Assembly: GCA_963667015.2 (NCBI GenBank)
Contig: CAXXJJ010000004.1
Location: forward strand, 3,808,001 to 3,872,000
Source: Desulfatiglandales bacterium
GTDB lineage: Bacteria; Desulfobacterota; DSM-4660; Desulfatiglandales; HGW-15
Length of the DNA: 64,000 nt
Direction: 5' to 3'
The notes beneath the pieces are model-generated. The model was not told the origin of the DNA. It worked only from the letters and a program-made list of their open reading frames with translations, and did no database searches. Within the stretch, counting starts at the first letter, position 1, and each line of letters opens with the position of its first letter. Position numbers and translations under genes: made by a program. Of this stretch, positions 6,413-36,578 are shown piece after piece.

Positions 6413-6419
6413 AACCGGT

Positions 6420-7658: not shown

Positions 7659-7710
7659 TGTCAAACTGGATTTTCCTATATATGACAAGCTTATGGTCGG
7701 GCAAACCGAT
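7659..7710 (-). promoter_or_regulatory. Shared operator/promoter, site 1 (DCCP-ABC-TonB operon)
   Basis: ATCGGTTTGCCCGAC-N16-ATAGGAAAATCCAGT-TTGACA. Confidence 0.8.
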
Positions 7711-7840
7711 ATTTGACATATTCTGTGATTTTTTTTTCTATTTAATAGACAATATGTCCTGATCAATCTAATTTACATGAAATATGACTTTAATGCTGCA
7801 AACAGCAAACTAAATATAGATAGTTTAAGATCAACCACCT

Positions 7841-7892
7841 AAAGGATTTTCCTATATATAATACAAAATTCATCGCTTATACCAGTTTGACA
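7841..7892 (+). promoter_or_regulatory. Shared operator/promoter, site 2 (porin-yedE operon)
   Basis: AAAGGATTTTCCTAT-N16-ATCGCTTATACCAGT-TTGACA. Confidence 0.8.
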
Positions 7893-8002
7893 TACCTAGC
7901 TTTCTTAACTAGATCTTATTTACTTTTAAGGATTAAACATAACTTAATCAAAAGAATTAAAAATCGATGAATGATTAATCTTTTTTCCTAAAGGAGGAGA
8001 AA

Positions 8003-9232
8003 ATGAACAGATTTGGCTTTTCTAAAAAATGGTTAATCTGCTTTTTTACTTTGCTGACATTTGGATTATTCTTATCAGTAAATGCATCCGGCGAGGAATC
8101 TTTAGGTGCCTCCATTAAAAATGGAAAGGTAAACGGGGAACTTAAAATCTGGTACCAGACAAATGACAATGATCTCAGTGGCAACAGCTTTCTTGACAAG
8201 GAAAACAGCATATTTGATGCCGGACTAAATCTTGGCTATACAACCGCCGGCTTCAAGGGTTTTAATATTGGGATCAATTTTTATGCAATAAATGACCTGG
8301 GAGCCTACGACAATTTTGCAAATAGCAGTATCCACGGTGTTAACCACAGTGAGACGACATCATGGCTTGGAGAGGCCTTCATAGCCTATAACAAAGAAAA
8401 TACGACAGTAAAACTCGGAAGGCAGAATATAAAATCCCCGCTTATTAACAGCGACGGCTGGGCAGTTTTTCCCAACAGCTTTGAGGCAATATTCTTCCAA
8501 AATAAAAGTTTAAGCGATACCAGTATTGTTGCATCCTATGTCACAAGGGAAAGAACCCTCAAGAGCCATACCTTTGAGGATTTTGTAGATGATGGGGGTT
8601 TTATGCTGGGTGCAGAAAACAAATTCTTTAAGGATCTTGCCCTGAGCGGATATTATTACCATATAAAGGGAGCTTCAGATATAAACTCAATTTATCTTCA
8701 GGCCGTTACAGAATATAAAAAGATAAATGTTTCAACACAGTATATGTTCTTTGACTCGGATGCAGCCAATTCCGACTCAACAAATGCTGTTGGAGTCCTT
8801 GTGTCAACTAAGATAGGAAATGTTGACCTGTCGGGTGCAGTAAGTACTGTTGATAAAGGCACATTAAATGCCGCAAAATTTTCAGATAACGGAATAAAGA
8901 CACCTCTCTACACTGCATCCATTTGTGCTGACGGTGATATTGCCTCTGCCACTGATACCGATGCCCTCAAAGTTTCAATAGGGTTTTCGCCAATGGAAAA
9001 ACTCAGCATAACCGGCACATTCGGCTACTATGACCATGGCAGCCACTCCTCAGCCAGTCCGAACAATGCGTCAACATCCGCAGAACTTGTTCTTAAATAT
9101 ACAGGGTTTAAAAACATGACGATCTTTGCAGCCTATGTAAACTCGGATCACAACGGAGTAGGCGGATGGAAAGGATGCACCTCCGAGGACTCACTTAATA
9201 CTCTAAGGATATGGGCCAGCTATAAATTCTAG
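8003..9232 (+). CDS. Outer-membrane porin, OprD-like
   Basis: Signal peptide, amphipathic beta strands, KLGRQ..SPL motif, C-terminal YKF. Confidence 0.75.
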   Translation: MNRFGFSKKWLICFFTLLTFGLFLSVNASGEESLGASIKNGKVNGELKIWYQTNDNDLSGNSFLDKENSIFDAGLNLGYTTAGFKGFNIGINFYAINDLGAYDNFANSSIHGVNHSETTSWLGEAFIAYNKENTTVKLGRQNIKSPLINSDGWAVFPNSFEAIFFQNKSLSDTSIVASYVTRERTLKSHTFEDFVDDGGFMLGAENKFFKDLALSGYYYHIKGASDINSIYLQAVTEYKKINVSTQYMFFDSDAANSDSTNAVGVLVSTKIGNVDLSGAVSTVDKGTLNAAKFSDNGIKTPLYTASICADGDIASATDTDALKVSIGFSPMEKLSITGTFGYYDHGSHSSASPNNASTSAELVLKYTGFKNMTIFAAYVNSDHNGVGGWKGCTSEDSLNTLRIWASYKF

Positions 9233-9272
9233 ATATCTCTTCTGAAAAACTTGAAAGAAGGAAGGAGCTGTT

Positions 9273-10361
9273 ATGTCACAGATAAAAAATTTTTTTGCAA
9301 CCAGATGGGGAATTATAAGTGTGGGTGCCTTTATAGGTATTCTGGCAGCACTGCTCCAGAAATGGGGAAATCCCGGAAATATGGGAATTTGTGTTGCCTG
9401 TTTTAACAGGGATATTGCAGGCGCTGTCGGGCTTCACAGGGCCGCTGTAGTTCAGTATATGAGACCAGAAATCATCGGTTTTGTTATCGGCTCCCTGGCG
9501 GCTGCACTGATCTTTAATGAATACAAATCAAGGGCAGGATCTGCTCCAATAGTAAGGTTTTTTTTAGGGGCATTTGCAATGATAGGGGCGCTTGTCTTTC
9601 TGGGCTGTCCATGGCGCGGCCTGCTCAGGCTTGCAGGCGGGGACTGGAATGCAATACTGGGCTTAGCCGGCCTGGTGGTGGGTATCTGGATCGGGACCCT
9701 TTTTCTCAAAAACGGCTATAACCTTGGAAGGAGCCAAAAGACATATGCCTCGGTAGGTCTTCTCATGCCAATACTTATGGCAGGATTTCTTGCGCTCATG
9801 TTTATATTTCCACAGGTTGAAGGCCAGGATAAAAACGATATACTCTTTTACAGCCTGAAAGGCCCCGGCGCAATGCATGCCCCGCTCATTGTTGCTCTTG
9901 TTGTAGGTTTTTTTGTCGGCTTTATTGCACAGAGAAGCCGTTTCTGCACAATGGGTGCGTTTCGGGATCTTTTGCTTTTCAGGCAGGCCCATCTGCTGCT
10001 TGGTATTATATCCCTTGTTATAGCCGCATTTGTTGTAAACCTTATAGTAGGCCAGTTTAAACCCGGATTTGAAGGTCAACCCGTTGCCCATACAATGCAT
10101 ATATGGAATTTTGCAGGGATGGTTCTTGCAGGTCTGGCATTCGCACTCGCCGGAGGATGTCCCGGACGCCAGCTATTTCTGGCAGGAGAAGGAGACGGTG
10201 ATGCAGCAGTCTTCGTATTCGGGATGATCACGGGTGCCGCATTTGCTCATAATTTCGGACTGGCCAGTTCACCGAAAGGTGTTGGGGCACACGGGATCGC
10301 GGCTGTAATAATAGGTTTAATAGTCTGCCTGTATATTGGCTTTACAATGAGACAAAAATAA
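9273..10361 (+). CDS. yedE: YedE family putative selenium/sulfur transporter
   Basis: GNPGNMGICVACF, FLGCPWR, QRSRFC, LAGGCPGRQL; multiple TM helices. Confidence 0.88.
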   Translation: MSQIKNFFATRWGIISVGAFIGILAALLQKWGNPGNMGICVACFNRDIAGAVGLHRAAVVQYMRPEIIGFVIGSLAAALIFNEYKSRAGSAPIVRFFLGAFAMIGALVFLGCPWRGLLRLAGGDWNAILGLAGLVVGIWIGTLFLKNGYNLGRSQKTYASVGLLMPILMAGFLALMFIFPQVEGQDKNDILFYSLKGPGAMHAPLIVALVVGFFVGFIAQRSRFCTMGAFRDLLLFRQAHLLLGIISLVIAAFVVNLIVGQFKPGFEGQPVAHTMHIWNFAGMVLAGLAFALAGGCPGRQLFLAGEGDGDAAVFVFGMITGAAFAHNFGLASSPKGVGAHGIAAVIIGLIVCLYIGFTMRQK

Positions 10362-10378
10362 GTAAAAAGGAGGATATT

Positions 10379-10597
10379 ATGGGAACTACAATAGATGCAA
10401 GAGGTTTGAGTTGTCCTCAGCCTGTACTTATGACGCTCGACAATATCAAGAAACAGAATAATGGAGAAATGGAGATTCTTGTTGATACCGAAACCTCAAA
10501 AGAAAATGTAAGCAGGGCTGCTACCAGCAAAGGGTGGCAGGTAACAGATGTAAAAGAAGAAGACGAGTGTTTCAGAATCTCAATAAGCAAGGGTTGA
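10379..10597 (+). CDS. TusA/SirA-like sulfur/selenium carrier protein
   Basis: IDARGLSCPQPV motif. Confidence 0.9.
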   Translation: MGTTIDARGLSCPQPVLMTLDNIKKQNNGEMEILVDTETSKENVSRAATSKGWQVTDVKEEDECFRISISKG

Positions 10598-10599
10598 TT

Positions 10600-11151
10600 T
10601 TGGGTATTTTAAAAGCTCTAAAGAAAAAAATATCAGGGCCTGAAAAAATAACAAAAAATGATCTGGGGCTCTTTGTCTTTGAAAACACCAGCGAGGTAAT
10701 CCGAGCAGAAAAGATATTAAAGGCGAATGGCTGGGAAATAAGAGTAATGGGTCCTCCGCCCGAGATAAGGAGCGGGTGTGACCTTGTTATTGAGTTCCCC
10801 CTGATAGAAGAACTCAACATCATCAGGCTGCTTAATGATAAAAATCTCACACCCATTGAGGTCGTTCCGGTTAACAGTCCACTGTTAAAACCGGTTAATC
10901 TATTTCAGGTAAAGGATTTCGGAAAGCACCTCATGGTGAGGGCAGCCAACATGAAACTGACCATTGACAAGGAAACCCTGATGATAGTCAATATATCCGG
11001 AGGGGGCTGCCCTGACGTCCCCTATCTGGCCCACGAGATGGTGGGAAAAAATTTATCAGACGCCCCCGATCCGGAAGATATCGGGCATACCCTGTGCGGG
11101 TATGCCCTTAAACTCGCCTATGAGGAGATAAAAAAACAATGCTTGCAGTAG
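10600..11151 (+). CDS. DUF3343-domain putative Se/S carrier protein
   Basis: VIRAEKILK, PPPEIRSGCD, SGGGCPDVP, TLCGY; probable TTG start at 10600. Confidence 0.7.
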   Translation: MGILKALKKKISGPEKITKNDLGLFVFENTSEVIRAEKILKANGWEIRVMGPPPEIRSGCDLVIEFPLIEELNIIRLLNDKNLTPIEVVPVNSPLLKPVNLFQVKDFGKHLMVRAANMKLTIDKETLMIVNISGGGCPDVPYLAHEMVGKNLSDAPDPEDIGHTLCGYALKLAYEEIKKQCLQ

Positions 11152-12002
11152 TGGGGACTGTCCCGATAAAGGGTTTTCCTCTTGTAGCAGGAGAAGTGAC
11201 CCTTGAGGATTATTCTATTGTTATAGAAGGACACAAGGTTCCGGTAAACCGCGGCACCCCGGCATTGATAGGGGCATCAATAGAAACCGCCCGGGTAAAG
11301 GGCGATGATAAGATGTTCGCATTTCTTGTGGGGGATATCGGGCTTGGAGACGGAAGCAGGAAACTTTATAAATATCTTTCCGAAAATTTAAGCAAATATG
11401 ATTTTGATGTGATTACCTTTCATTATCTTCAGCCTGATACTGACTGGCATAACAGGGTCCTGTTTTCTTTGGAAGATATGAAAAAGAGACCGTTTCTTAT
11501 TGCTGATGCAGGATTTATGTATGCAGCAAAAATGAGCGGGCAGGCTTCTGAATATGACCTTTTTACCCCGGATGCAGGAGAACTGGCCTTTCTTGCAGAT
11601 GAAGAAGCCCCTCATCCCTTTTATACAAGGGGATTTATCCTCCACGAGGACAATAATACCCCGGACCTGATAAGCCGCGCCTACAGCCATGATAATGCGG
11701 CAAAATATCTCCTGGTAAAAGGAAAAAAAGATTATATTGCAAATAACAAAGGGATTATAGGCCATGTTGAAGAACCCTCGGAAGAGACAATGGAGGCAAT
11801 AGGCGGAACAGGCGATACCCTGACCGGTATAGTCTCTTCCCTTATAGCATCAGGCATGGAAACAGTTGAGGCATCCATATCAGCGGCCAGGATAAACAGG
11901 CTGGCAGGTCATTATACAAAACCTGACCCGTCCACGCAGATCATGGATATCATCAGAAATATTTCCTCTTCCGCAGAGACGGCCGATCGGGCAAAGGTAT
12001 AA
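11139..12002 (+). CDS. Ribokinase-fold, NAD(P)H-hydrate dehydratase-like protein
   Basis: IADAG, FTPDAGEL, LLVKG, IGGTGDTLTG. Confidence 0.72.
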   Translation: MLAVVGTVPIKGFPLVAGEVTLEDYSIVIEGHKVPVNRGTPALIGASIETARVKGDDKMFAFLVGDIGLGDGSRKLYKYLSENLSKYDFDVITFHYLQPDTDWHNRVLFSLEDMKKRPFLIADAGFMYAAKMSGQASEYDLFTPDAGELAFLADEEAPHPFYTRGFILHEDNNTPDLISRAYSHDNAAKYLLVKGKKDYIANNKGIIGHVEEPSEETMEAIGGTGDTLTGIVSSLIASGMETVEASISAARINRLAGHYTKPDPSTQIMDIIRNISSSAETADRAKV

Positions 12003-12006
12003 ATAT

Positions 12007-12231
12007 ATGGAAAAAAATAAAATAAAAATTTCCCCGGATATGACCGTGCTCGATATTGTATCAAACAATAAAAACACAATTGAAATATTCCAAGGCTATG
12101 ATGAACAGGCAGGTGAATGCATATGCTGCGAATCCCTTTTTGAAACCCTTGACAAGGTAGCGGAGAAATATGGTATTGACCATAATAAATTATTAAATGA
12201 CCTTAATGCCGTGTGTCCTGAAGACACTTGA
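12007..12231 (+). CDS. Small DUF1858-like Cys-rich protein
   Basis: ISPDMTVLDIV...CICCESLFETL. Confidence 0.6.
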   Translation: MEKNKIKISPDMTVLDIVSNNKNTIEIFQGYDEQAGECICCESLFETLDKVAEKYGIDHNKLLNDLNAVCPEDT

Positions 12232-12263
12232 TCGGGAGTCGCTACAGGGGATGGAAAAGCAGA

Positions 12264-13070
12264 ATGAAAGATAATAAGATTTTTTTTGCAGGGATTGATA
12301 TCGGTTCCATGACCACAAAGTGTGTAATCATGGGTAACAACGGGGTAACAGGCAGTATTGTCTTACCTACAGATTCAGCACCAAAGGTTTCCGGTGTAAA
12401 TGCGCTGGAAACAGTATTGACTAAAATCGGCATAGACAGATCATCTGTTTCTTATATTGTAGGAACCGGTTACGGCAGGATATCCCTTGACCTTTTTGAC
12501 CATACGGCAACAGAACTTACATGCCATGCAAAGGGCGTAATGCATGTGAACCGTGATGTTTATGGAATCATTGATATCGGCGGCCAGGACAGTAAGGCCA
12601 TAAAGCTTAAACCAGACGGCACCATAATGGATTTTGTTTTAAATGACAGGTGCGCTGCAGGTACCGGTCGTTTTCTTGAGGTAATGGCCAATGCCCTTAA
12701 ACTGGATTTAGATGAATTTGGCGAACTGTACGAAAAGTCCGATAGTCCCTGCCCCATAAACAGTACCTGTATTGTATTTGCCGAATCAGAGGTAATATCA
12801 CTTTCCGCACAGGGTGAATCAAAGACCGACATAGCGGCAGGCCTTCATCAGAGCATTGCAAAACGAGTTGGGAATATGGCAAAAAGACTCGGCATAAAAG
12901 AGAAGATAGCGTTTGTCGGCGGGGTGGCAAAAAACAATGGTATGAGACGCGCGCTTGAGGATTACATGGGGATAAAATTTGTTTCCCTTTCAGGCGATCC
13001 CCAGATTACCGGGGCATTAGGAGCAGCAGTCATTGCACGGAATCAGTTTGTTAAGAGACATGAAAACTAA
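12264..13070 (+). CDS. ATP-dependent [4Fe-4S] activase (acyl-CoA dehydratase activase/DCCP-reductase type)
   Basis: GIDIGS, GTGYGR, DIGGQDSK, NDRCAAGTGRFLE, CIVFAESE, GGVAKN. Confidence 0.9.
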   Translation: MKDNKIFFAGIDIGSMTTKCVIMGNNGVTGSIVLPTDSAPKVSGVNALETVLTKIGIDRSSVSYIVGTGYGRISLDLFDHTATELTCHAKGVMHVNRDVYGIIDIGGQDSKAIKLKPDGTIMDFVLNDRCAAGTGRFLEVMANALKLDLDEFGELYEKSDSPCPINSTCIVFAESEVISLSAQGESKTDIAAGLHQSIAKRVGNMAKRLGIKEKIAFVGGVAKNNGMRRALEDYMGIKFVSLSGDPQITGALGAAVIARNQFVKRHEN

Positions 13071-19970: not shown

Positions 19971-20022
19971 ATCGTTTTATCCAATCCATCCCGAATTATT
20001 TATCGGAATATACAACTTGACA
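19971..20022 (+). promoter_or_regulatory. Shared operator/promoter, site 3 (Mo-hydroxylase operon)
   Basis: ATCGTTTTATCCAAT-N16-ATCGGAATATACAAC-TTGACA. Confidence 0.72.
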
Positions 20023-20148: not shown

Positions 20149-20350
20149 TCCAGGGAACGGCTGAAGAATAATTATCAACATCATATAACAATCAAAAAAC
20201 ACTTCTCCCTACCCCTGGCCTTTAATTTGTTGCCACCTGCAATCAGGGAAAACCTGTCCCTTCATACTATATTAGTACCAGGCAATAAATAAATCAGCGC
20301 AAAAAAACTCATCCCTTAATGTGCGAAATCGCCAGAAAGGAAGGTTAAAA

Positions 20351-20851: not shown

Positions 20852-20861
20852 GAGACCGATT

Positions 20862-21911: not shown

Positions 21912-21943
21912 CCTATTACCCATTATACTTCAGGAGGAAAAAA

Positions 21944-22663: not shown

Positions 22664-22664
22664 C

Positions 22665-25022: not shown

Positions 25023-25105
25023 TAAAAGCAAGGTTCAAGGTTTAAGGCTTAAGGTTCAGGGTAAAGGCCTTAAATCTAAACCAAAAAGCTAACAAGGAGA
25101 AAAAA

Positions 25106-26082: not shown

Positions 26083-26159
26083 TAAGGATGATGCAATATT
26101 TAGACTAGGGAAGAACAGATCGTTCTTCCCTGTTGTTTTATATGAATAAGGAGGAAACG

Positions 26160-26477
26160 ATGTTAACAGTAACAGACAAGGCAAACGAAAAGATCACAGA
26201 TTTTCTTAAGGCCCAGAAAGACCCGTCATGCATAAGGTTTTTCCTCTCAGAAGGCGGCTGCTCAGGGCCTTCTATTGGAATGGCTCTTGATGAGCCGTCA
26301 GAAAATGATGAGGTTATAAAAGACAACGGGGTAACCTACTTAATTGACAAAATGCTGCTGGAAAAGGCAAAACCGATAAGTGTTGACTTTATTGAATCTG
26401 AGACCGGTTCGGGTTTTTCAATCTCCTCCAGTTTACCAAAGGGAACAGGGTGCAGCTCTTGCTCAAGCTGCTCCTGA
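26160..26477 (+). CDS. IscA/HesB-like protein, Cys form (GGCSGPSIGMALDE)
   Basis: RBS AGGAGG; family motif; C-terminal CSSCSSC. Confidence 0.85.
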   Translation: MLTVTDKANEKITDFLKAQKDPSCIRFFLSEGGCSGPSIGMALDEPSENDEVIKDNGVTYLIDKMLLEKAKPISVDFIESETGSGFSISSSLPKGTGCSSCSSCS

Positions 26478-26530
26478 TCAGATAAAATACAGGGATTTTC
26501 AATTCAACTTAATACAGAAGGAGAAAAGAG

Positions 26531-27403
26531 ATGAAATATGCCAAATTAATGATTTTGTCGGGTGTATTGCTGTCGATTCTGGCCGCAGGAACTGTTTACG
26601 CAGCGGCCCAGGATCAGTGGGAGGTATTAATACCCAGGGCAATCGACGGGGTGAAGGTGAGAATGGCTGCATTCCACAACGAAAACTTTGGCGTCTGGGG
26701 CGGAGCCGGGGACGAAGGCGCCCAGCACTATACCCTTGACGGAGGCAAGACCTGGACGGCGGCAAAGACCGGAGGCTGCATGTTCTCCGTGGATATCGTG
26801 GATACTGACACAATATGGCAATCCTGTCTGAGCGGTACAAGTCTGACTGTAGACGGCGGGAAAAACTGGAAGGTCATTGCAAAAGATGTCGGCGGTCTGG
26901 CCAGCATCCTTGCCTTTGCGGATGCAAAGACAGGATGGGTAGGTTCCGCAAATAAGTTTAAAGTGACCAGGGACGGCGGGGCAACGTGGAATGAACTGAC
27001 CCTGCCCGAAGGAGTCAACGCTGTTGCTGCAATTTCACTCCGCACTCCGACCGACGGGTACCTGATAGGAAAGGATGGTGTCCTGTACATTACAAATGAC
27101 TGCGGCAAGTCCTGGAAGTCCGGTTCACTGGGCCTTGAAAACCCTGTTATTTCCGGGTTCGACAACGATTGGGTCGAGACTCCGCAGGCTGCCGTGCGTT
27201 TTACCGACGCCAAAAATGGCCTGGTCGTTCTGGGACTTTCAGGCAATGAGAATATGATTGCCCTGCGAACAGAAGACGGCGGGAAATCCTGGAAAAAAGA
27301 AAACGTACCCGCTAAACCGGGGAAACCCTTTATCTCCCGTGACGGAAAATTTTTGACGATAAGCAAATGGCAGGTAGGGCTTACACTCCTCAAAGCCAAC
27401 TAG
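26531..27403 (+). CDS. Exported YCF48/BNR-repeat beta-propeller protein
   Basis: Signal peptide; repeated T-x-DGG-x-T/SW Asp-boxes. Confidence 0.8.
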   Translation: MKYAKLMILSGVLLSILAAGTVYAAAQDQWEVLIPRAIDGVKVRMAAFHNENFGVWGGAGDEGAQHYTLDGGKTWTAAKTGGCMFSVDIVDTDTIWQSCLSGTSLTVDGGKNWKVIAKDVGGLASILAFADAKTGWVGSANKFKVTRDGGATWNELTLPEGVNAVAAISLRTPTDGYLIGKDGVLYITNDCGKSWKSGSLGLENPVISGFDNDWVETPQAAVRFTDAKNGLVVLGLSGNENMIALRTEDGGKSWKKENVPAKPGKPFISRDGKFLTISKWQVGLTLLKAN

Positions 27404-27414
27404 GTGTTCCTTTT

Positions 27415-27924
27415 ATGATCACAGGTATTATGCAATGGCTTTTCCCGTGTTTTCTTTCACTTAAGAAGCATAATACCTGTATTCATATCCCGTGCGTTCT
27501 GCACTGGCTGTTTCGATTCATTCTGTCCGGCATCTTTTTATACAGCGGCTATGTCAAATGGAAAAGTCCGTTGCGGTTCGAGGCGGTGCTTTATGCATAT
27601 GACCTGTTTCCGGACGTATATATTCCTGCCATAGCCCTGTATTTCCCCTGGGTTGAAATAATTCTTGGCCTGTTACTCCTGATTGGATTCAGACGAAAGA
27701 TCCGATATCTGGCCGGAGCCTCCACCATGCTGCTGCTTTTTTTTATAACCATTATAATCATCACCTATTTCCGGGGGATTGAAGTAGATTGCGGATGCCT
27801 GGGCTTCGACGATCCGATCTCTCCCTGGACAATCGCCCGCGATACCCTGATGCTCATTCCTGCCATTTATCTGCTGTTCGCAGACCCTCTGCTTCGCAGA
27901 AGCCTTAAGAGTCCAACCCCTTAA
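27415..27924 (+). CDS. MauE/DoxX family membrane protein (start uncertain)
   Basis: RFILSGIFLYSG, PWVEIILG, DCGCLG. Confidence 0.78.
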   Translation: MITGIMQWLFPCFLSLKKHNTCIHIPCVLHWLFRFILSGIFLYSGYVKWKSPLRFEAVLYAYDLFPDVYIPAIALYFPWVEIILGLLLLIGFRRKIRYLAGASTMLLLFFITIIIITYFRGIEVDCGCLGFDDPISPWTIARDTLMLIPAIYLLFADPLLRRSLKSPTP

Positions 27925-27935: not shown

Positions 27936-27987
27936 ACCGGCTTTTCCGGTACTACATAGTCTTTTTATCGATATTTCCAGTTTGACA
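27936..27987 (+). promoter_or_regulatory. Shared operator/promoter, site 4 (UshA-like cytochrome)
   Basis: ACCGGCTTTTCCGGT-N16-ATCGATATTTCCAGT-TTGACA. Confidence 0.8.
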
Positions 27988-28246: not shown

Positions 28247-29605
28247 ATGAAGAAAATATCAGTTTATATCCTTATTCCACTGCTTGCGGCAGTCATCCTT
28301 TCAACCTTATCTCATACAGAAGATTCAAATGCGGCTGATAACCCGGAGATCACCATTGTCTACAGCAGTAATGTTCTGGGTTATTATCAGCCATGCGGCT
28401 GCAGTGAAGGCGAACAGCTTGGCGGATTGTACAAAAGGTCCACATACCTTAACAATTTTAGAAAAGAACATGGCGAGGTTATCATAGTCGATTCCGGTGA
28501 TCTGCTAAATGAGAATGAAGATCTTTCCGACAAAGTACTTGAATCGGCAAAACTTAAAGCTAAGCTCATAGCTCAGATATACAATACAACAGGAATCGAT
28601 GCAGTGGCTGTCGGTGAACTGGACCTGGTTTTAGGTATTGATTTTCTTAAAGAGCTGCAGGGAAAATATAATTTCCCTTTCATTTCCGCCAACCTGGTTG
28701 ATGAGAAGAACATCCCCTTTTTTAAGCCCTACATTATTAAAAAAATAAACGGAAAGAATGTTGGTATATTCGGGCTTATAGGAAGCAGTTCCGAGATGGG
28801 TTCGAAAATAGAAAAGCTTACAGGCGGTAAAGCAAAGGTTCTGGATACTTTAAAGACCGCAGAAACCATTATTAATGAACTGTCAGGGAAAGTCGATTAC
28901 ATGGTTGCAGTTGCTCATCAGCGAACCAACAGAAACTGGGTAATGGCAAAAAAGGTACCGGGAATAGATTTGATTGTCGTAGGTCATGATAAGCTCAAAA
29001 CAGAGAAACCAAGTAAGGCCGGTAATTCCCTTATTGTACAGGCAGGAGAAAAGGCCCAGCACCTTGGAGTGCTGGAGGTTACAATAAATGATTCTCAAAC
29101 TGAGCATAACATGCTGGTCCCCCTTGGCAACAAAATAGAAGATGATCAGAAGATCAAGGATATGATAGGTGAGTATGAACACAGTGTCGCATCTATGTAT
29201 AATAACCAGGTTCAGGAAAATGCCGCCACTAAAAATGTTGTATCAAGAGTTGCTGTGTGTGAAGCCTGCCATGAAGATCAGGTAAAGGCATGGGACGCCA
29301 CGGACCATGCCCATGCATACGATACGCTGGTCCAAAAATCAAAGCAGCTTGACCCTGACTGCCTGAACTGTCACACAACCCGTTTCGAGCAGCCCGAAGG
29401 CTTTACTATGCAACTTAAGCAGATGGAACTGGCAAATGTTCAGTGCGAAAATTGTCATGGGTTTGCAAAGGAACACCTGAATGACGGAACGCCGATTCCT
29501 GTGGCAAAGCCTGGTATGGATCTATGCCTTAAATGCCACAGCCCCTATCGGTCACCTGATTTTGAAAAGAATGCTGCTGAGATTTTTGAGAAAATAAAAC
29601 ACTAG
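28247..29605 (+). CDS. UshA-like metallophosphoesterase domain fused to a tetraheme cytochrome c; Cys form (PCGCS)
   Basis: QPCGCS..LGG, VDSGDL, ISANL, IVVGH; CEACH, CLNCH, CENCH, CLKCH. Confidence 0.85.
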   Translation: MKKISVYILIPLLAAVILSTLSHTEDSNAADNPEITIVYSSNVLGYYQPCGCSEGEQLGGLYKRSTYLNNFRKEHGEVIIVDSGDLLNENEDLSDKVLESAKLKAKLIAQIYNTTGIDAVAVGELDLVLGIDFLKELQGKYNFPFISANLVDEKNIPFFKPYIIKKINGKNVGIFGLIGSSSEMGSKIEKLTGGKAKVLDTLKTAETIINELSGKVDYMVAVAHQRTNRNWVMAKKVPGIDLIVVGHDKLKTEKPSKAGNSLIVQAGEKAQHLGVLEVTINDSQTEHNMLVPLGNKIEDDQKIKDMIGEYEHSVASMYNNQVQENAATKNVVSRVAVCEACHEDQVKAWDATDHAHAYDTLVQKSKQLDPDCLNCHTTRFEQPEGFTMQLKQMELANVQCENCHGFAKEHLNDGTPIPVAKPGMDLCLKCHSPYRSPDFEKNAAEIFEKIKH

Positions 29606-29668: not shown

Positions 29669-30808
29669 CTATAGCATTTCGATATAGGCCTCTATTCTAA
29701 CCCGGAGCTGTCCGGTATCGCTCTCGGAATAATCCGTTTCCAGGTGCAGCGACGGAACGCCCAGGAGCTCCTGGACCAGCTCATCCACCATAAAGGCTTC
29801 AATGTTGTAGGTGTGGCAGGCCTGCCAGGTGAGATCGATTACGCCGTCAACAGAGAAATCCCTGATTATTTCGGAAAGGAGATCAAACCTGCCATTATTG
29901 GGACTCATAACCGAGCAGGGGGTCCTAAGATACTGTTCGGCCAGGGCATCCATGGGGTCTTTATCCTCTGCGACCTGGAAGGCCTGCTTGTAACCGGAAC
30001 AGCTCTCAAAGGCAACCACGTCTGCCCCGATCTGCTCAACTATCCTGATAACCTTTTCACTCCCGATTCCGACCGGAACACCGGTAAGGAGAATTCTTTT
30101 TTTATTGTTGCCGCTTTCCACCGGGGAGGCTGTTTCATGGTGCTTTATAACTTCCTGCATCAGATCGATACCTTTTTCCTTGTTCGCCAGAAACCCAACC
30201 TTTAAAGAGGACCTCGAGCAGTTGCGTAAACCTGGAAGCGGCGCGGGTATTGGCTTTATTGATAGGTCCATCAGGGCCTTTCTTGTCATGCGTTCCCTGT
30301 TCATCAGCCCTATGGCATCCTTTAGTTTATCCTGAGTGTAATCGTTACACCGGTCAGTTGTTCCACAATGGCCTTGAAATGATGCAGCTCATTTTTCCAT
30401 GCTGCAAGCGCCAGTGTCATCATCCTGCAGTGAAGGCAATTGCATCACGTGGGTTGTCTTGGTTCGGTTCAACAGTTCGAACATCTTCTTTTTACCGTCG
30501 CAGGTAGTGTCACCTATGATAATATCGGAAAAGGCGAAAAAAGGGCAGGTATCAGTAATTGCAAATCCATAGCTCGATTTGATCAGCGGGCATAGGTTGC
30601 GCGGAAGCACATCTTCGGCTGCGGTTATGGGGTTGTTGCTGGTGCCGCACAGGGGCAATGGAATAGCGCCGGCGGCAACGGCTATCTCCATGGGAGAATA
30701 GAGGCAGTAGTATCCTACAGCGGCTCTGCCGTCCTTTTTCATCTGTTCAATATCCTCAGGATTCTGATCCATGGCCTGCTGGAGTCTTGTCATCAGTTTT
30801 TCAGTCAT
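29669..30808 (-). pseudogene. Second DCCP-like reductase, frameshifted around 30300-30400
   Basis: N-part YCLYSP, LCPLIKSSYG, TTCDGKKK; C-part ESCSG, WQACHTY, ETDYSESD in a separate ORF. Confidence 0.82.
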
Positions 30809-30901: not shown

Positions 30902-30953
30902 TGTCAAACAAGAGTTTCCGATCTATTTAAGTTATCTCATAGACACACCCTAT
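30902..30953 (-). promoter_or_regulatory. Shared operator/promoter, site 5 (second DCCP)
   Basis: ATAGGGTGTGTCTAT-N16-ATCGGAAACTCTTGT-TTGACA. Confidence 0.8.
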
Positions 30954-33643: not shown

Positions 33644-33697
33644 TTTACCCTGTTAAATGCTGTTTCGCAGCCAGCTTTGCGGATTTAACAGGATAAA
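33644..33697. repeat. Palindromic element related to the hairpin at 35641-35670
   Basis: TACCCTGTTAAAT...TAACAGG arms at both sites. Confidence 0.55.
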
Positions 33698-33744
33698 CTT
33701 GCCATTCCTATTCTAACATCATTTAAAAAAATTCAATAAAATTT

Positions 33745-34185
33745 TTAGGCGGCAATTTTCTGTTTCCATCCATATACCGGCCCCAGTGTTCTGATTATTT
33801 CAGTAAATTTTTTGCATGTTTCAGCAAACTGAGGTCCCATGGAAGCAGAGTTATAATAGATATTGACCCTTTCAGGCTCTATTCCTATTTCTTTGAATAA
33901 TGTCTTTGCATATTTAATAAGGGTTGTGGCCTTTTCATTCCCTGACACATAATGACAGTCACCTATCAGGCAGCCTGATAGGAATACTCCGTCCGCGCCA
34001 TTCTCTATAGCCTGCAGCAGGTTGATAAGGGCGATTCTTCCGGTGCATGGAATTTTTATTATTTTAACATTGGCCGGATATCCCAGCCTCAGTGATCCTG
34101 CCAGATCTGCAGCCGCATATGAGCACCACTGGCAGCAGAAGGCTATTATATTCGGCTCAAAATCGTTAATATTTTTCCCGTTCAA
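33745..34185 (-). CDS. mvhD: MvhD-like hydrogenase iron-sulfur subunit, Cys form
   Basis: IIAFCCQWCSYAAADLAG, PCTGRI, GADGV..GCLIGDCHY; probable TTG start at 34185. Confidence 0.88.
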   Translation of the reverse strand: MNGKNINDFEPNIIAFCCQWCSYAAADLAGSLRLGYPANVKIIKIPCTGRIALINLLQAIENGADGVFLSGCLIGDCHYVSGNEKATTLIKYAKTLFKEIGIEPERVNIYYNSASMGPQFAETCKKFTEIIRTLGPVYGWKQKIAA

Positions 34186-34208
34186 CTTATAAATCCTTTG
34201 TATTAAAA

Positions 34209-35492
34209 TTAAAGCCCAAACTCTGCAAGATCCGGCCCCAGGTATGTACGCTCGTTTTCTCCGAGCATTCCCATTGCAAGGCATATTATTGTCCATAGAT
34301 GAACAACATGATAGTCTCCACCAAAATGCTCTCCAATATCATGTATCTGGGCGTGGCAGTTATGGCATGGTACTGCCACATAATTTGCCCCTGTCGCAAT
34401 TATCTGATCAAATTTTATTTTTCCATAGGACTGTCTCTCATCCCTGAAACCGGCCTGAAGTGAGCCTCCTCCACCACCGCAGCAGAAGTTGTTCGACCTG
34501 TTGGGAGTAATGTCCACGAAATTTTCTTCGCCCACAACGGACTTTACTACAAACCGAAGGTCCTCGGCCATTGGATCTCCTATGGACTTCCTTACAATAT
34601 TACATGGGTCCTGGACCGTAAACTTGATCTTGAGGTCTTTGTTCCACTCGGAGTTGACTTTGAGTTTCCCCTCCCTGATCCATTTTGCATAAAGCTGCAC
34701 AACGCTTATGAATTCAAAATTGTGAGGGATATTGAATTTTTTAAGTGCTGCCCATACAGCATAAAATGAGTGCCCGCATTCGGTATTTACAAAATATTTG
34801 CAGCCCAGTTTATCTATATGCTCTGCCTGTGCCCGGACTATATACTCCCAGCTTTCATCATCGGCCAGGAACATGCAGTAGTTTTCTCCGGCCCACATAT
34901 CGGAATAGTATGTCCAGTCTGCCCCTGCTTTATGAAGTATCTTCCACAAAGGAAGGAGTTCATCAGGTTCGGTAACAGGCTCCCTGGAATTCTGGTTAAA
35001 GCAGTACATGGCCCCTTCCCTGTCTATTGAGGCCTGAAAATCCTCAAATCCTTCCTGCTCACGAAGTTCTTCGGCCAGGTCTTCAATTACAAATTTATAA
35101 TCATCAAGAGGAACACCCATTGCACCTCCCCTGGACTTTACATGATGATCACAGGAGCCGAGTATTCCCTTTGGTCTTTCCTCCCTGGGCCACTGGGACC
35201 GGAGATAATAGATGATATTTGGAATATCGATATCCATGGGGCATGCATGCTGGCACCGTTTGCACATTGTACATACCCATAACCATGGATTGCGCTCAAC
35301 CTCTTCATCCAGACCAAAAGCAATCATTCTGAGCAGTTTTCTCGGGTCCATGTCCATCTGGCCTGTAGCCGGACAACCCCCTGAACATGTACCGCAGGTC
35401 AGGCAGAGATTGAGATTTGCTCCATTAAGCAAATGATTGATTTCTTTTCGGATATTTCCTTTTGCTTTTGTTAAATCTATAGCTTCGCTCAT
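34209..35492 (-). CDS. HdrC/HdrD-like Fe-S oxidoreductase (CCG domain)
   Basis: CLTCGTCSGGCP, CTMCKRCQHACP, ECGH, QDPC, CCGGGGG, PCHNC. Confidence 0.85.
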   Translation of the reverse strand: MSEAIDLTKAKGNIRKEINHLLNGANLNLCLTCGTCSGGCPATGQMDMDPRKLLRMIAFGLDEEVERNPWLWVCTMCKRCQHACPMDIDIPNIIYYLRSQWPREERPKGILGSCDHHVKSRGGAMGVPLDDYKFVIEDLAEELREQEGFEDFQASIDREGAMYCFNQNSREPVTEPDELLPLWKILHKAGADWTYYSDMWAGENYCMFLADDESWEYIVRAQAEHIDKLGCKYFVNTECGHSFYAVWAALKKFNIPHNFEFISVVQLYAKWIREGKLKVNSEWNKDLKIKFTVQDPCNIVRKSIGDPMAEDLRFVVKSVVGEENFVDITPNRSNNFCCGGGGGSLQAGFRDERQSYGKIKFDQIIATGANYVAVPCHNCHAQIHDIGEHFGGDYHVVHLWTIICLAMGMLGENERTYLGPDLAEFGL

Positions 35493-35676
35493 ACTTTAAT
35501 CTCCATTTTGATAAGGGATATGTAATTTTTCTGCTCAAACTGCACTCCTGGATCAGGGTCAGTCTGCCACAGTAAAAATTAACCTCGGGATAGTCGAAAA
35601 TTGACAACAGGCTGGTAACAAGTAATCAACTGCATGGGGATACCCTGTTAAATAGAAAAATAACAGGGTATTAGTA

Positions 35677-35760
35677 TCAGTTTTCGACCATGACCAAATG
35701 ACGACCAGTCCAGGTGTCATATGATGCAACAATTCATGTAAAGCCGAAAACCTTTTTCAT
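35677..35760 (-). CDS. Leader peptide 2, MKKVFGFT-U-IVASYDTWTGRHLVMVEN (UGA at 35736-35734)
   Basis: Paralogue of leader 1; hairpin ATGAC-ACC-TGGACT-GGT-C-GTCAT starts 13 nt after UGA; ends TGA-TAC-TAA. Confidence 0.72.
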
Positions 35761-35822
35761 TTGGATGCGCCTTCTTCCGGTTAAGTGGATAGAGTATAAA
35801 GATTAAGCAATACACATTTATA

Positions 35823-35874
35823 AGTCAAACAGGAAAACCCGATATAGAAAACATTTCATTAAACATATTCCGAT
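35823..35874 (-). promoter_or_regulatory. Shared operator/promoter, site 6 (hdrD-like/mvhD operon)
   Basis: ATCGGAATATGTTTA-N16-ATCGGGTTTTCCTGT-TTGACT. Confidence 0.77.
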
Positions 35875-36020
35875 TTCAGAAAATTCTATATTCTTCTTCC
35901 TGAAAACAAGAAGGGGGGCTGCAGTATCGGTGAAACGCCCTGCTATATTGAGCCTGCAGGGAAAAATCCCAGCGCCAATAATTGGCCTTAATCAAACCCT
36001 GCAGGCGGCTTCTATTTTGA

Positions 36021-36296
36021 TTACCTCCACACCGGTGCATCGGGGATGATTTTCATCAGACAGATATCGTCCCCCATCTTGACACTCTTTAAAAGTGCAA
36101 CTTCGACATTGCATTGGAAGGCTCTTTCAAAAAGGACTTTACTGTATCCCGCGGAGCACTGACACCATGTGTCGTTGTCCTCGGATGCTGCCTCCCCGTT
36201 CTCCCCGTATACAATTGCCTCTGCTATTTCAGCATTACTTACCGCGGCAATACTATATGAAATTATCTGTTCCTGAATTTTTCTTATATTAAACAT
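36021..36296 (-). pseudogene. Short Cys-containing hypothetical gene, probably internally deleted
   Basis: TWCQCSAGY..FE..VKMGDDIC resembles the C-terminus of a longer family. Confidence 0.4.
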
Positions 36297-36526
36297 GCTG
36301 TTACCTCAATCTTTCATCTTAAATTTTTAAAGCTGCATTTTGCACGCATGATGGCCTTTGTTTCCATACAAATACACAAATGGCCTGGTTACATGCTCAT
36401 TATACACACGTCTCCCGAAGCCGGCATTTACACTCCTATGCCAGCGGACGACCATGCTTGACGCGATAGTCCTTATCAATACATTTCGTTAAAAATTACC
36501 AAACTGTTAGATATTTTGACCCCGAA

Positions 36527-36578
36527 ATAGGTTATGCCCATTATTTGATCAATCTATATCGATTTTTCCTGTTTGACC
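36527..36578 (+). promoter_or_regulatory. Shared operator/promoter, site 7 (third DCCP and its activase)
   Basis: ATAGGTTATGCCCAT-N16-ATCGATTTTTCCTGT-TTGACC. Confidence 0.8.

What the first reader, a model, noticed from the sequence alone, without database searches (positions are those of the whole stretch)
7659..36578. Seven promoters share an identically spaced operator: 15-bp box, 16 bp, 15-bp box, TTGAC
Sites: 7710-7659(-), 7841-7892(+), 19971-20022(+), 27936-27987(+), 30953-30902(-), 35874-35823(-), 36527-36578(+). The distal box approximates ATMGG-N5-CCKAT (a T-N11-A dyad, with perfect ATAG-N7-CTAT at 30953). The proximal box approximates ATMG-N6-CCWGT and abuts the -35 hexamer. The boxes start 31 bp apart in all seven. 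This matches the recognition-site/activation-site layout of LysR-type regulators. Other TTGAC promoters I inspected (near 1700, 52616, 54611, 57942, 62669) lack it, and no LysR gene is in the window.
Basis: seen in the sequence. Interest (0 to 1): 0.85.

Follow-up and report, generated by a model that had tools for sequence, protein, structure and literature searches.

The report
Operator of a bacterial selenium regulon
Seven promoters in this window share one rigid two-box operator in front of selenium-uptake and selenium-linked enzyme genes; it is likely the binding site of the genome's selenium-associated LysR-type regulator, which would define a bacterial selenium regulon that I did not find described in print.

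Summary
All seven sites are in the sequence as described. On the 46 bases upstream of each of the window's 146 TTGAC, they score 33-42 bits and the next best scores -13.8. The 7.2-Mb genome holds two more full sites and one weak one.

The layout is box 1 (ATMGG-N5-CCKAT), 16 bp, box 2 (ATMGG-N5-CCWGT), then TTGACA. It recurs across the order. Box spacing is 31 bp in 54 and 32 bp in 5 of 59 sites in relatives. An untrained TAnnnT lies 17 bp after TTGACA.

Of 61 sites in relatives, 52 precede selD, yedE, yedF, double-cubane reductases, porins or homologues of the window's own target genes.

The LysR reading is supported. The genome has only two full-length LysR-type genes. One is the selenium-associated subfamily (NF040786, LysR_Se), and a site lies 1.1 kb downstream of it, before yedF. 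A site lies just downstream of this gene in 11 of 31 genomes.

Binding, the effector and the direction of control are inferred. No RNA data were available.

This is a new member of a known kind: the first operator and regulon proposed for bacterial LysR_Se.

The parts
7659..7710 (-). Operator site 1. Box 1 at 7696-7710, box 2 at 7665-7679, -35 TTGACA at 7659-7664. Has the best third box of the window (about 7643-7657), between the -35 and the predicted -10 TAGTGT (7636-7641).
   Evidence: Sequence. Upstream 46 nt score 38.7 bits. Third box scores 9.5 bits.
1793..7595 (-). Putative operon behind site 1: double-cubane reductase (6420-7595), SaoA-like ABC ATPase (5654-6412), SaoP/TauC-like permease (4881-5678), SsuA-like binding protein with in-frame TGA at U188 (3881-4837), and CU-type TonB-dependent receptor with in-frame TGA at U478 in the motif PGCU (1793-3856).
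   Evidence: NCBIfam hits; translations with TGA=U. The operon extent is inferred from same-strand adjacency only.
7841..7892 (+). Operator site 2, divergent from site 1. Box 1 at 7841-7855, box 2 at 7872-7886, -35 at 7887-7892.
   Evidence: 37.2 bits.
8003..13070 (+). Putative operon behind site 2: Opr-like porin (8003-9232), YedE selenium transporter (9273-10361), PF11823 Se/S-carrier-like protein (10534-11151), YjeF_C/carbohydrate-kinase-like protein (11139-12002), and dehydratase-type activase ATPase (12228-13070).
   Evidence: The same gene order (yedF-yedE-?-YjeF_C-like-selD) lies behind a site in G116.
19971..20022 (+). Operator site 3. Box 1 at 19971-19985, box 2 at 20002-20016, -35 CTTGACA at 20017-20022.
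   Evidence: 35.8 bits.
20321..27924 (+). Putative operon behind site 3: two proteins of no known family (20321-20851, 20862-21911), a molybdenum-hydroxylase set (2Fe-2S 21944-22663, Mo subunit 22656-25022, FAD subunit 25106-25831), IscA/HesB_Se protein (26133-26477), BNR/Ycf48-like protein (26531-27403), and MauE/DoxX-like protein (27367-27924).
   Evidence: The first gene is 61% identical to a gene behind a site in G005. Five more sites precede genes that look like the same family in the printed translations.
27936..27987 (+). Operator site 4. Box 1 at 27936-27950 (ACCGGCTTTTCCGGT), box 2 at 27967-27981, -35 at 27982-27987.
   Evidence: 41.6 bits. The promoter scan lists TTGACA-18-AATTAT here.
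28247..29605 (+). UshA-like (seleno)protein family member (NF041198) with a C-terminal multihaem-like region, behind site 4 after a leader of about 260 nt.
   Evidence: Orthologues lie behind sites in G001 and G003.
30902..30953 (-). Operator site 5. Box 1 at 30939-30953 (ATAGGGTGTGTCTAT), box 2 at 30908-30922, -35 at 30902-30907.
   Evidence: 33.3 bits. The promoter scan gives TTGACA-16-TAAAAT, 11 of 12.
29669..30808 (-). Double-cubane reductase copy with one in-frame TGA (codon 140), behind site 5. Whether the TGA is selenocysteine or a break is not resolved.
   Evidence: Contigs of a related strain show small indels here.
35823..35874 (-). Operator site 6. Box 1 at 35860-35874 (weakest box 1: ATCGGAATATGTTTA), box 2 at 35829-35843, -35 TTGACT at 35823-35828.
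   Evidence: 33.6 bits.
33745..35492 (-). HdrD/HmcF/TmcB-like iron-sulfur protein (34209-35492) and MvhD/VhuD-like protein (33745-34296), behind site 6 after a leader of about 330 nt.
   Evidence: Homologues lie behind sites in G001, G003, G004 and G007.
36527..36578 (+). Operator site 7, divergent from site 6. Box 1 at 36527-36541, box 2 at 36558-36572, -35 TTGACC at 36573-36578.
   Evidence: 40.7 bits.
36643..38839 (+). Double-cubane reductase (36643-37920) and its activase ATPase (38087-38839), behind site 7.
   Evidence: The same pair lies behind a site in G116, and orthologues lie behind sites in many relatives.

Best explanation
A rigid two-box operator (ATMGG-N5-CCKAT, 16 bp, ATMGG-N5-CCWGT, then TTGACA) sits at seven promoters of selenium-related operons in the window. 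It is likely bound by the selenium-associated LysR-type regulator (LysR_Se, NF040786) encoded 1.04 Mb away, which is predicted to activate these promoters.

Shown by the calls:
- The motif is real, has a fixed geometry and is specific to these promoters.
- It is followed by a sigma-70-type -10 at the right distance.
- It is conserved across the order, and in one distant family, in front of selD, yedE, yedF, double-cubane reductases with their activases, porins and other selenium-linked genes.
- It is physically linked to the LysR_Se gene in many genomes.

Inferred:
- A LysR_Se tetramer would place one dimer on the symmetric distal box (predicted centre about -74) and the other on the proximal box (about -43). 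The boxes are three helical turns apart, so they lie on the same face of the DNA. The proximal dimer would touch RNA polymerase at the adjoining -35.
- A weak third box between the -35 and -10 (centre about -21) would be the alternative, occluding position, as in the sliding-dimer scheme of LysR-type regulators.
- The signal would be a selenium metabolite. Selenophosphate has been suggested for the archaeal orthologue HrsM.

The direction of control (activation about 0.6, given that LysR_Se binds) and the effector are not shown.
For: 1. Specificity. Seven of the window's 146 TTGAC, and 9 of the genome's 13,353, carry the upstream motif at 33-44 bits; the next best score 8.8 and 4.9. Leave-one-out scores are 11.9-29.2.

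2. Geometry. Sites in relatives were found by box 2 plus TTGAC alone. Of 59 with a box 1, 54 have it at 31 bp and 5 at 32 bp, and none elsewhere in the 20-45 bp range searched.

3. Promoter. In columns not used for any search, T70 (47/74), A71 (61/74) and T75 (48/74) form TAnnnT with a 17-bp spacer.

4. Conservation.
- The sequence-only model R1 finds matches in 29 of 41 genomes (G000 and 40 relatives), including 10 of 10 of the same genus.
- In a phylum-wide sample, only 1 of 146 genomes outside the order has a match. That genome (G116) has two full sites, one before a double-cubane reductase with its activase and one before yedF-yedE-..-selD.

5. Regulon content. Of 61 sites in relatives, the first downstream gene is SelD in 6, YedE in 4, YedF in 10, double-cubane reductase in 14, porin in 4, UshA-like in 2, HdrD/MvhD-like in 4, the family of window gene 20321-20851 in 6, a ModA-like binding protein in 2, a Mo enzyme in 1, and other or unknown in 8.

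6. The regulator.
- The genome has only 3 LysR HTH matches: two full-length genes and one fragment.
- One full-length gene is NF040786 over the cut-off. Its gene order is LysR_Se, a ThiF/MoeB-like gene, the site, then yedF.
- The other sits beside purA and has an ordinary helix, TQPAISQMI.
- 11 of 31 LysR_Se loci hold a site within 1.5 kb, always downstream on the same strand. They come from several genera and have different target genes.
- The three relatives without a LysR_Se match have no motif match.
- The unusual recognition helix AQASVSER[IV] occurs in 23 of 31 LysR_Se proteins. 22 of these come from genomes with the motif. In the 23rd genome, the best sub-threshold hit precedes yedE.

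7. Literature. LysR_Se was predicted in 2015 to be a selenium-specific regulator, with archaeal HrsM as its orthologue. No binding site is given (PMC5322559, passages read).
Against: - No binding experiment and no transcription start data exist for these sites. No RNA run was listed.
- The regulator gene is in tandem with its nearest target, not divergent from it. No convincing box lies upstream of the regulator gene itself: the best is 7.5 bits, a score reached about once per kb.
- The predicted centre of the distal box (about -74) is one helical turn further upstream than the usual -65 (a figure recalled, not tested).
- The -35 is a near-perfect TTGACA (TTG in 74/74). That is unusual for activator-dependent promoters and would also fit repression.
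- LysR_Se is nearly universal in this order (38 of 41 genomes), so its co-occurrence with the motif has little discriminating power. Related genomes are not independent samples.
- In G000, selD has no operator.
- One full site (C4:3776356-3776407) has no recognisable downstream gene.
Confidence: 0.6

Rival explanations
1. The same operator and the same regulator (LysR_Se), but its main action is repression. When selenium is sufficient, the tetramer would hold the promoter shut, using box 2 and the weak box 3 between the -35 and -10. Limitation would release it. This is how HrsM represses the Cys-isoform hydrogenase genes in Methanococcus.
For: The near-consensus TTGACA with a 17-bp spacer and TAnnnT could be active without help. 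A third box overlaps the spacer: 8 of 74 sites score 5 bits or more at that offset, against 0-1 at any other offset. HrsM is described as a repressor under selenium-adequate conditions (PMC11097638, passages read). Uptake systems for trace nutrients are usually derepressed under limitation (general knowledge).
Against: Box 2 ends exactly at the -35 without covering it, which is the usual place for activators. Box 3 is weak or missing at most sites (66 of 74 score under 5 bits). Several -10 hexamers in the window are poor, such as TAGATC and CAACAT. Some targets carry in-frame TGA codons. If these encode selenocysteine, those proteins need selenium to be made, which fits induction by selenium better.
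Confidence: 0.2
2. A different, unidentified transcription factor outside the LysR family binds the boxes. The nearness of LysR_Se would then only reflect clustering of selenium genes.
For: No binding data exist. 20 of 31 LysR_Se loci show no site within 1.5 kb. In G116 the regulator gene is on a different contig from the sites. Dimeric helix-turn-helix proteins of several families bind 15-bp dyads (general knowledge).
Against: No other DNA-binding regulator gene was seen beside the sites in the window (the nearby kinase and GGDEF genes lack DNA-binding domains in the hits) or in G116. A NarL-type response regulator gene lies about 1.5 kb from the orphan site C4:3776356-3776407. A T-N11-A dyad plus a second box near the -35 is the LysR layout. 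The motif is found where the LysR_Se helix AQASVSER is kept.
Confidence: 0.12
3. The genome's other full-length LysR-type regulator (C4:2293227-2294093) is the binder.
For: It is the only other full-length LysR-type gene in the genome, and it scores 184 bits on NF040786.
Against: It is below the family cut-off. It lies beside purA and an ABC ATPase gene, not selenium genes. It has an ordinary TQPAISQMI helix. No site is near it: none of the genome-wide hits falls there.
Confidence: 0.02
4. This is not a regulator site. The likeness would come from duplicated promoter DNA, or from an extended promoter read by an alternative sigma factor.
For: Three double-cubane reductase paralogues are among the targets, so their promoters could have been copied along with the genes.
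Against: The spacer and flanks carry no conservation while the boxes do. Targets include unrelated genes. The same pattern recurs in other families with diverged spacers. The -35 and -10 are of sigma-70 type. Each box has internal dyad symmetry.
Confidence: 0.03

Closest known systems
LysR_Se / HrsM (selenium-associated LysR subfamily; NCBIfam NF040786; Lin et al. 2015, PMC5322559; HrsM of Methanococcus as described in PMC11097638)
   Same: The candidate regulator scores over the curated cut-off of this family and is encoded next to yedF. The family was predicted to regulate selenium genes, and HrsM controls selenium-dependent gene expression.
   Different: For bacteria, the passages I read give no operator, no target list and no mechanism. 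HrsM acts at an archaeal promoter region (the frc-vhc intergenic region) as a repressor of Cys-isoform genes. I did not see its binding sequence, so the two sites were not compared.
Classical LysR-type operators with a recognition site and activation sites (for example BenM/CatM with three sites, CbbR/CbnR, CysB). Site positions are recalled, not from a call.
   Same: A symmetric T-N11-A dyad lies upstream, a less symmetric box lies beside the -35, and a weak further box lies in the -35/-10 spacer. The predicted centres of boxes 2 and 3 (about -43 and -21) match the recalled positions of BenM sites 2 and 3.
   Different: The distal box is 31 bp from box 2, not about 21 bp, which puts its predicted centre near -74 rather than -65. 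The regulator gene is in tandem with its target, not divergent. No autoregulatory site was found. The closest solved relatives by sequence are an RbcR/CbbR-type protein (5y2v) and a YeiE-like protein (8sbf), at E values of 1e-30 to 1e-26 only.
OxyR operator (four ATAG-type elements; extended versus compact contacts). Recalled, not from a call.
   Same: Two 15-bp dyads have ATAG/CTAT-like ends (site 5 has a perfect ATAG-N7-CTAT). A start-to-start distance of 31 bp resembles the extended contact pattern reported for reduced OxyR.
   Different: OxyR's compact form uses dyads about 22 bp apart. Here 31 bp (rarely 32) is the only spacing seen. The half-site core is GG/CC. The regulon is selenium-related, not peroxide stress.
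SAO system and the double-cubane/selenium link (Haft and Gwadz 2022, bioRxiv 10.1101/2022.07.06.499078)
   Same: The gene families are the same: SaoA/SaoP-like ABC parts, selenocysteine-bearing transport proteins, and double-cubane reductases with activases. Their profiling found 955 of 970 double-cubane proteins in SelD-encoding assemblies (passages read).
   Different: That work rests on phylogenetic profiles and gene neighbourhoods. Its main text holds none of the words LysR, regulator or promoter. Here the link is a shared operator, which puts double-cubane reductases in one transcriptional unit of control with yedE, yedF and selD.

Membership tests
LysR-type operator (recognition site plus activation site) | The distal site is an interrupted dyad with T-N11-A | tested here: met
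   Box 1 is ATMGG-N5-CCKAT: A1 66/74, T2 60/74, G4 73/74, C12 73/74, A14 58/74, T15 53/74. The two halves are mirror images.
LysR-type operator (recognition site plus activation site) | A second, less symmetric site lies next to or over the -35, on the same face of the helix | tested here: met
   Box 2 (columns 32-46) ends at the base before TTGACA. Its right half is CCWGT instead of CCKAT. The distance is 31 bp in 54 and 32 bp in 5 of 59 relatives' sites, and 31 bp in 9 of 9 own sites.
LysR-type operator (recognition site plus activation site) | Sites centred near -65 and -35/-45 relative to a mapped start | tested here: inconclusive
   No start data: no RNA run was listed, and the runs laid were contigs only. 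From the conserved TAnnnT, the predicted centres are about -74, -43 and -21.
LysR-type operator (recognition site plus activation site) | A cognate LysR-type gene lies next to a target | tested here: met
   A site lies within 1.5 kb of the LysR_Se gene in 11 of 31 loci, including this genome.
LysR-type operator (recognition site plus activation site) | The regulator gene is divergent from its target and autoregulated through the same site | tested here: not met
   All 11 linked sites lie downstream of the regulator gene on the same strand. No significant box lies upstream of lysR_Se in G000.
LysR-type operator (recognition site plus activation site) | A LysR-type tetramer binds the site | not testable with these tools
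   Needs EMSA, footprinting or DAP-seq.
LysR_Se (NF040786), for the candidate regulator | Score over the curated family cut-off along the full length | tested here: met
   275.2 bits against a cut-off of 250, profile positions 2-296 of 298.
LysR_Se (NF040786), for the candidate regulator | Found in genomes that encode SelD, near selenium genes | tested here: met
   selD is present in G000 (356 bits, one in-frame TGA). The regulator gene is followed by a ThiF/MoeB-like gene and yedF. In G021, G016 and G038 the linked site precedes selD.
LysR_Se (NF040786), for the candidate regulator | Responds to selenium status | not testable with these tools
   No expression data for this organism.

The most novel reading that the evidence does not exclude
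The operator marks the first selenium-sensing regulon defined in bacteria. One LysR_Se tetramer would read a selenium metabolite and switch on a whole acquisition line together: outer-membrane entry (porin, selenocysteine-bearing TonB receptor), ABC and YedE import, YedF and DUF3343-type carriers and, in other genera, SelD. The double-cubane (8Fe-9S) reductases with their ATP-driven activases would be the missing reductive step of selenium assimilation. That would give these enzymes, whose physiological substrates are not known, a natural substrate.
Probability: 0.3. Interest if true: 0.85.

Novelty: new member of a known kind. Interest (0 to 1): 0.68.

Why it matters
How bacteria sense selenium and set the level of uptake and selenoprotein synthesis is poorly understood. 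The only regulator studied is archaeal HrsM, and bacterial LysR_Se is only a prediction from 2015 (PMC5322559, PMC9312934).

A defined 52-bp operator with a clear target list makes the question testable. It names the DNA to use in binding assays. It names the promoters to fuse to reporters. It provides a search model for other genomes.

It also places double-cubane reductases, selenocysteine-bearing transport proteins, a UshA-like protein, an HdrD/MvhD-like pair and a molybdenum hydroxylase set under common control with yedE, yedF and selD. This is independent support, by co-regulation, for the selenium link of double-cubane enzymes that had been inferred from phylogenetic profiles (bioRxiv 10.1101/2022.07.06.499078).

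Tried and rejected
- **RNA evidence.** No RNA holder was listed for window 27901-37900. Four runs laid on 19001-39000 were contigs of related strains and gave no starts or ends. The would-refute test by start mapping therefore stays open.
- **Known RNA families.** None in the window at gathering score. None, and no tRNA, behind the orphan site C4:3776356.
ORF lists for the three long leaders gave nothing firm. There is one 32-codon ORF with two TGA at 20050-20148. Not pursued further.
- **Autoregulatory site upstream of lysR_Se.** The best box scores 7.5 bits, which is at background frequency.
- **Co-variation of recognition helix and box sequence in family f4** (helix SQPTVSFQ). Only two candidate sites before selD were found (ATAGAGTAATTCTAT and ATCGGTTCTTTCTAT). 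Both have T in place of C11, and one also lacks G5. With n=2 this is suggestive only.
- **Phyletic co-occurrence as a test.** LysR_Se is present in 38 of 41 genomes, so it hardly discriminates.
- **Genomes scored as motif-negative.** Of five re-searched at a laxer threshold, the best hits of two precede yedE or selD, and selD in three of the five has a degenerate copy of the layout upstream. At least some of these negatives are therefore limits of detection.
- **A literature search with 'HrsM' alone** returned unrelated acronyms.
- **Repeated or duplicated promoter DNA.** Rejected because the spacer and flanks are not conserved.

Full report
**1. The observation**

The seven 52-nt stretches are at the coordinates and strands given. 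Aligned without gaps they read ATcGG.TTttCC.AT, then 16 unconserved bases, then tATATCGg.attTCCaGT, then TTGACA.

A matrix from the seven sites, run over the whole genome in which the window lies (7.19 Mb, 4 contigs; window = C4:3808001-3872000), scored the seven at 45-52 bits. It found two further full sites outside the window, C4:3776356-3776407 (37.3 bits) and C4:2768121-2768172 (36.4 bits). After these came 20.1 and then 17.6 or less.

To take the -35 out of the test, I scored only the 46 bases upstream of every TTGAC:
- Window: 146 TTGAC, of which 7 score 33.3-41.6 bits and the next -13.8.
- Genome: 13,353 TTGAC, of which 9 score 33.3-44.3 and the next 8.8 and 4.9.
- Leave-one-out scores of the nine sites are 11.9-29.2.

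The spacer and flanks carry no information, so the likeness is not copied DNA.

**2. What lies behind the sites**

The window is a selenium island. The operon extents below are inferred from same-strand adjacency.

| Site | Genes behind it |
|---|---|
| 1 | Double-cubane (8Fe-9S) reductase; SaoA- and SaoP-like ABC parts; a binding protein with in-frame TGA (U188); a CU-type TonB receptor with TGA in PGCU (U478) |
| 2 (divergent from 1) | Porin; YedE; a PF11823 Se/S-carrier-like protein; a YjeF_C-like protein; a dehydratase-type activase |
| 3 | Two unknown proteins; a molybdenum-hydroxylase set; an IscA/HesB_Se protein; others |
| 4 | UshA-like (seleno)protein family member |
| 5 | A second double-cubane reductase, with one in-frame TGA |
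| 6 | HdrD-like and MvhD-like proteins |
| 7 (divergent from 6) | A third double-cubane reductase with its activase |

Outside the window:
- One extra site precedes yedF.
- The other has no recognisable gene, tRNA or Rfam family behind it.
- The 20.1-bit hit (C1:2769052-2769103) precedes a ModA-like binding protein. That protein is 74% identical to a gene behind a strong site in G010. The gene behind a site in G008 looks like the same family in the printed translation. I count this as a weak tenth site.

**3. The regulator candidate**

That is right, and the whole genome has only three matches to the LysR HTH domain:
- C4:2766095-2766979, which scores 275 bits on NF040786, 'selenium metabolism-associated LysR family transcriptional regulator' (cut-off 250).
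- C4:2293227-2294093, at 184 bits and below the cut-off. It lies beside purA and has an ordinary helix, TQPAISQMI.
- A 134-residue fragment.

The first gene is followed by a ThiF/MoeB-like gene, then the operator copy C4:2768121-2768172, then yedF.

**4. Related genomes**

A sequence-only covariance model of the nine sites (A1, R1) matched at E of 0.01 or less in 29 of 41 genomes, counting G000 itself. That includes all 10 of the same genus (3-8 matches each), with full-length matches in other genera and families of the order.

In an even sample of the phylum, 4 of 151 genomes matched at E of 0.001 or less: G000, one same-genus genome, one same-order genome, and G116 of another family. That is 1 of 146 genomes outside the order. 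In G116, two full sites lie on one contig: selB, site, double-cubane reductase, activase, site, yedF, yedE, an unknown gene, a YjeF_C-like gene, selD.

I fetched more of the relatives' hits and scanned all loci with the matrix. This gave 65 distinct sites of 16 bits or more (69 rows, 4 of them duplicates from overlapping loci).

The first gene behind 61 of these sites (25, 36) is:

| First downstream gene | Sites |
|---|---|
| Double-cubane reductase | 14 |
| YedF | 10 |
| SelD | 6 |
| Family of window gene 20321-20851 (one pair aligned, 61% identity; the other five judged from the printed translations) | 6 |
| YedE | 4 |
| Opr-type porin | 4 |
| HdrD- or MvhD-like | 4 |
| UshA-like | 2 |
| ModA-like protein | 2 |
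| A molybdopterin enzyme | 1 |
| Other or unknown | 8 |

So 52 of 61 sites precede a core selenium gene or a homologue of a gene that also sits behind a site in this genome. Rows dropped before this count: sites whose locus ended before a gene could be read (2 rows, plus L011, L025 and L026), one 72-codon ORF not sent on, and the 4 duplicates.

By the titles of the closest public records, the group consists of uncultured Desulfobacteraceae-, Desulfatiglans- and Thermodesulfobacteriota-labelled genomes.

**5. Anatomy from 74 non-identical sites (9 own, 65 from relatives)**

- Box 1 is a symmetric dyad, A1 T2 M3 G4 G5 - N5 - C11 C12 K13 A14 T15. G4 and C12 are each 73/74.
- Box 2 is A32 T33 M34 G35 G36 - N5 - C42 C43 W44 G45 T46. 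Its promoter-side half departs from the dyad in a conserved way (G45 in 66/74).
- TTGAC follows at once. TTG is 74/74, but these columns were part of the search.

Columns that no search used show T70 (47/74), A71 (61/74) and T75 (48/74). That is TAnnnT with a 17-bp spacer, an independent sign that these are sigma-70-type promoters. It puts the start about 35 nt after the first T of TTGACA.

To test the spacing without bias, I picked sites by box 2 plus TTGAC only and looked for the best box 1 at 20-45 bp:
- Of 76 sites in relatives, 59 had a box 1 of 8 bits or more: 54 at 31 bp, 5 at 32 bp, none elsewhere.
- In 15 of the 17 sites with a weaker box 1, the best offset was still 31 bp.

A weak third box starts at column 54, 22 bp after box 2 and inside the -35/-10 spacer. 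Eight of 74 sites score 5 bits or more there, against 0-1 at each of 40 other offsets. The mean score is -9.9 there against -14.5 to -24.5 elsewhere. Site 1 has the best third box in the window.

**6. Link between motif and LysR_Se**

NF040786 matched at E of 1e-40 or less in 38 of the 41 genomes (35 over the cut-off). The three without a match (G014, G023, G032) also have no motif match. Because the gene is almost universal here, this says little.

Position says more. In 11 of 31 LysR_Se loci (gene plus or minus 1.5 kb), a site of 14 bits or more is present, always downstream on the same strand. Six of the 11 are from the window's genus, with the conserved order LysR_Se, ThiF-like, site, yedF. 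The other five are from other genera, with the site 39-430 bp after the gene. The site precedes selD in G021, G016 and G038, a porin in G019 and yedF in G034. At about five sites per 5 Mb, about 0.1 such locus would be expected by chance.

The recognition helix of these proteins is unusual: AQASVSER[IV], where most LysR proteins have a Q-P-x-[VI]-S-x-Q-I pattern. It is present in 23 of 31 LysR_Se proteins. 22 of them come from genomes with motif matches, and in the 23rd genome (G029) the best sub-threshold hit precedes yedE.

Family f4 has SQPTVSFQ and no match at E of 0.01 or less. Its two candidate sites before selD keep the layout but are poorer in C/G. That is only two sites.

**7. Mechanism**

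Shown: a conserved bipartite (weakly tripartite) operator fixed in register with a sigma-70-type promoter, specific to selenium-linked operons and genomically linked to LysR_Se.

Inferred:
- A LysR_Se tetramer binds box 1 and box 2 with its two DNA-binding dimers. The boxes are three helical turns apart, on one face of the helix.
- The promoter-proximal dimer ends at the -35 and would contact RNA polymerase, giving activation.
- Box 3 would be the alternative position, which blocks the promoter.
- The effector would be a selenium metabolite. Selenophosphate has been proposed for HrsM (PMC5322559 and PMC11097638, passages read).

The direction of control is open. A near-consensus -35 and the HrsM precedent speak for repression. 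The position of box 2, the weak -10 hexamers and the selenocysteine-bearing targets speak for activation.

**8. What is known**

- Lin et al. 2015 (PMC5322559; passages read) named the LysR_Se subfamily from gene neighbourhood and phylogeny. They equated it with archaeal HrsM. The main text has no occurrence of 'binding site', 'promoter' or 'operator'.
- A 2022 review repeats the prediction (PMC9312934; passages).
- The 2024 Methanococcus study describes HrsM as a repressor that binds the frc-vhc intergenic region and says the signal path is unknown (PMC11097638; passages).
- Haft and Gwadz 2022 (bioRxiv 10.1101/2022.07.06.499078; abstract and passages) tie double-cubane proteins to SelD-encoding genomes by profiling. 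The main text has no occurrence of 'LysR', 'regulator' or 'promoter'. Supplements of that preprint were not open to me.
- Full-text searches for a bacterial selenium-LysR operator or regulon found nothing further. These cover open-access papers and bioRxiv only.
Its follow-up was withheld.

**9. Verdict**

It is a new member of a known kind: a LysR-type operator, here for the selenium-associated subfamily, with its regulon. Unusual details are the fixed 31-bp spacing, the tandem position of the regulator gene and the invariant TTGAC.

Its value lies in making bacterial selenium sensing testable, and in placing double-cubane reductases and several selenoprotein families under one selenium-linked control.

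Noticed in passing
G000 C4:3776356-3776407 (L001 8356-8407, + strand), 32 kb before the window: A full operator copy (37.3 bits) with TTGACA but no recognisable gene, tRNA or Rfam family downstream. The next genes are on the other strand. It could drive a small RNA or peptide, or be a relic.
   Followed up: partly
G000 C1:2769052-2769103 (L003 8052-8103, + strand): A weak tenth site with a good box 1 and a degenerate box 2. It lies before a ModA-like binding protein, a NapH-like protein and a NifB-like radical-SAM protein. A 74% identical protein lies behind a strong site in G010, and a similar-looking gene behind one in G008. The TGA 11 codons before the next stop in the ModA-like gene may simply be its stop codon.
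   Followed up: partly
whole genome G000: A 7.2-Mb genome with only two full-length LysR-type regulators and one fragment. That is very few for a genome of this size.
   Followed up: partly
window 20023-20320, 27988-28246, 35493-35822: Long untranslated leaders (about 260-330 nt) lie between sites 3, 4 and 6 and their first genes. There is no Rfam match. A 32-codon ORF with two in-frame TGA lies at 20050-20148. A second level of control in the leader is possible.
   Followed up: partly
window 31000-33700: A stretch of short ORF fragments (MTHFR-like C-terminus 31943-32299, URO-D/methyltransferase-like piece 32368-32721) between the MvhD-like gene and site 5. Contigs of related strains skip 72 bp at 33049-33122. 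These may be decaying genes.
   Followed up: no
window 29669-30808 (- strand): The double-cubane reductase copy behind site 5 has one in-frame TGA (codon 140), in a stretch that does not align to the family profile. Contigs of a related strain show several 1-2-base indels here. It may be a selenoprotein variant or a gene in decay.
   Followed up: partly
window 13095-17950 (- strand): A 1064-residue hybrid histidine kinase and a response-regulator/GGDEF protein sit inside the selenium island, between the site-2 operon and yqeB. They have no operator of their own.
   Followed up: no
window 18311-19840 (- strand): YqeB (selenium-dependent molybdenum cofactor maturation) and an OS_HP2/DUF1573 (seleno)protein are divergent from site 3 but have no operator of their own in the 130-bp gap.
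   Followed up: no
G000 C1:1618368-1619294: selD of this genome (with its in-frame TGA) has no operator upstream (best score -8 bits). In other genera of the order and in G116, selD is a target. The regulon's membership therefore shifts between genera.
   Followed up: yes
window 39328-42719: A truncated type I methylase piece (HsdM N-terminus, 248 residues) and an XRE-HTH/M78-peptidase protein lie just after the island. This looks like a possible remnant of mobile or defence DNA at its edge.
   Followed up: no
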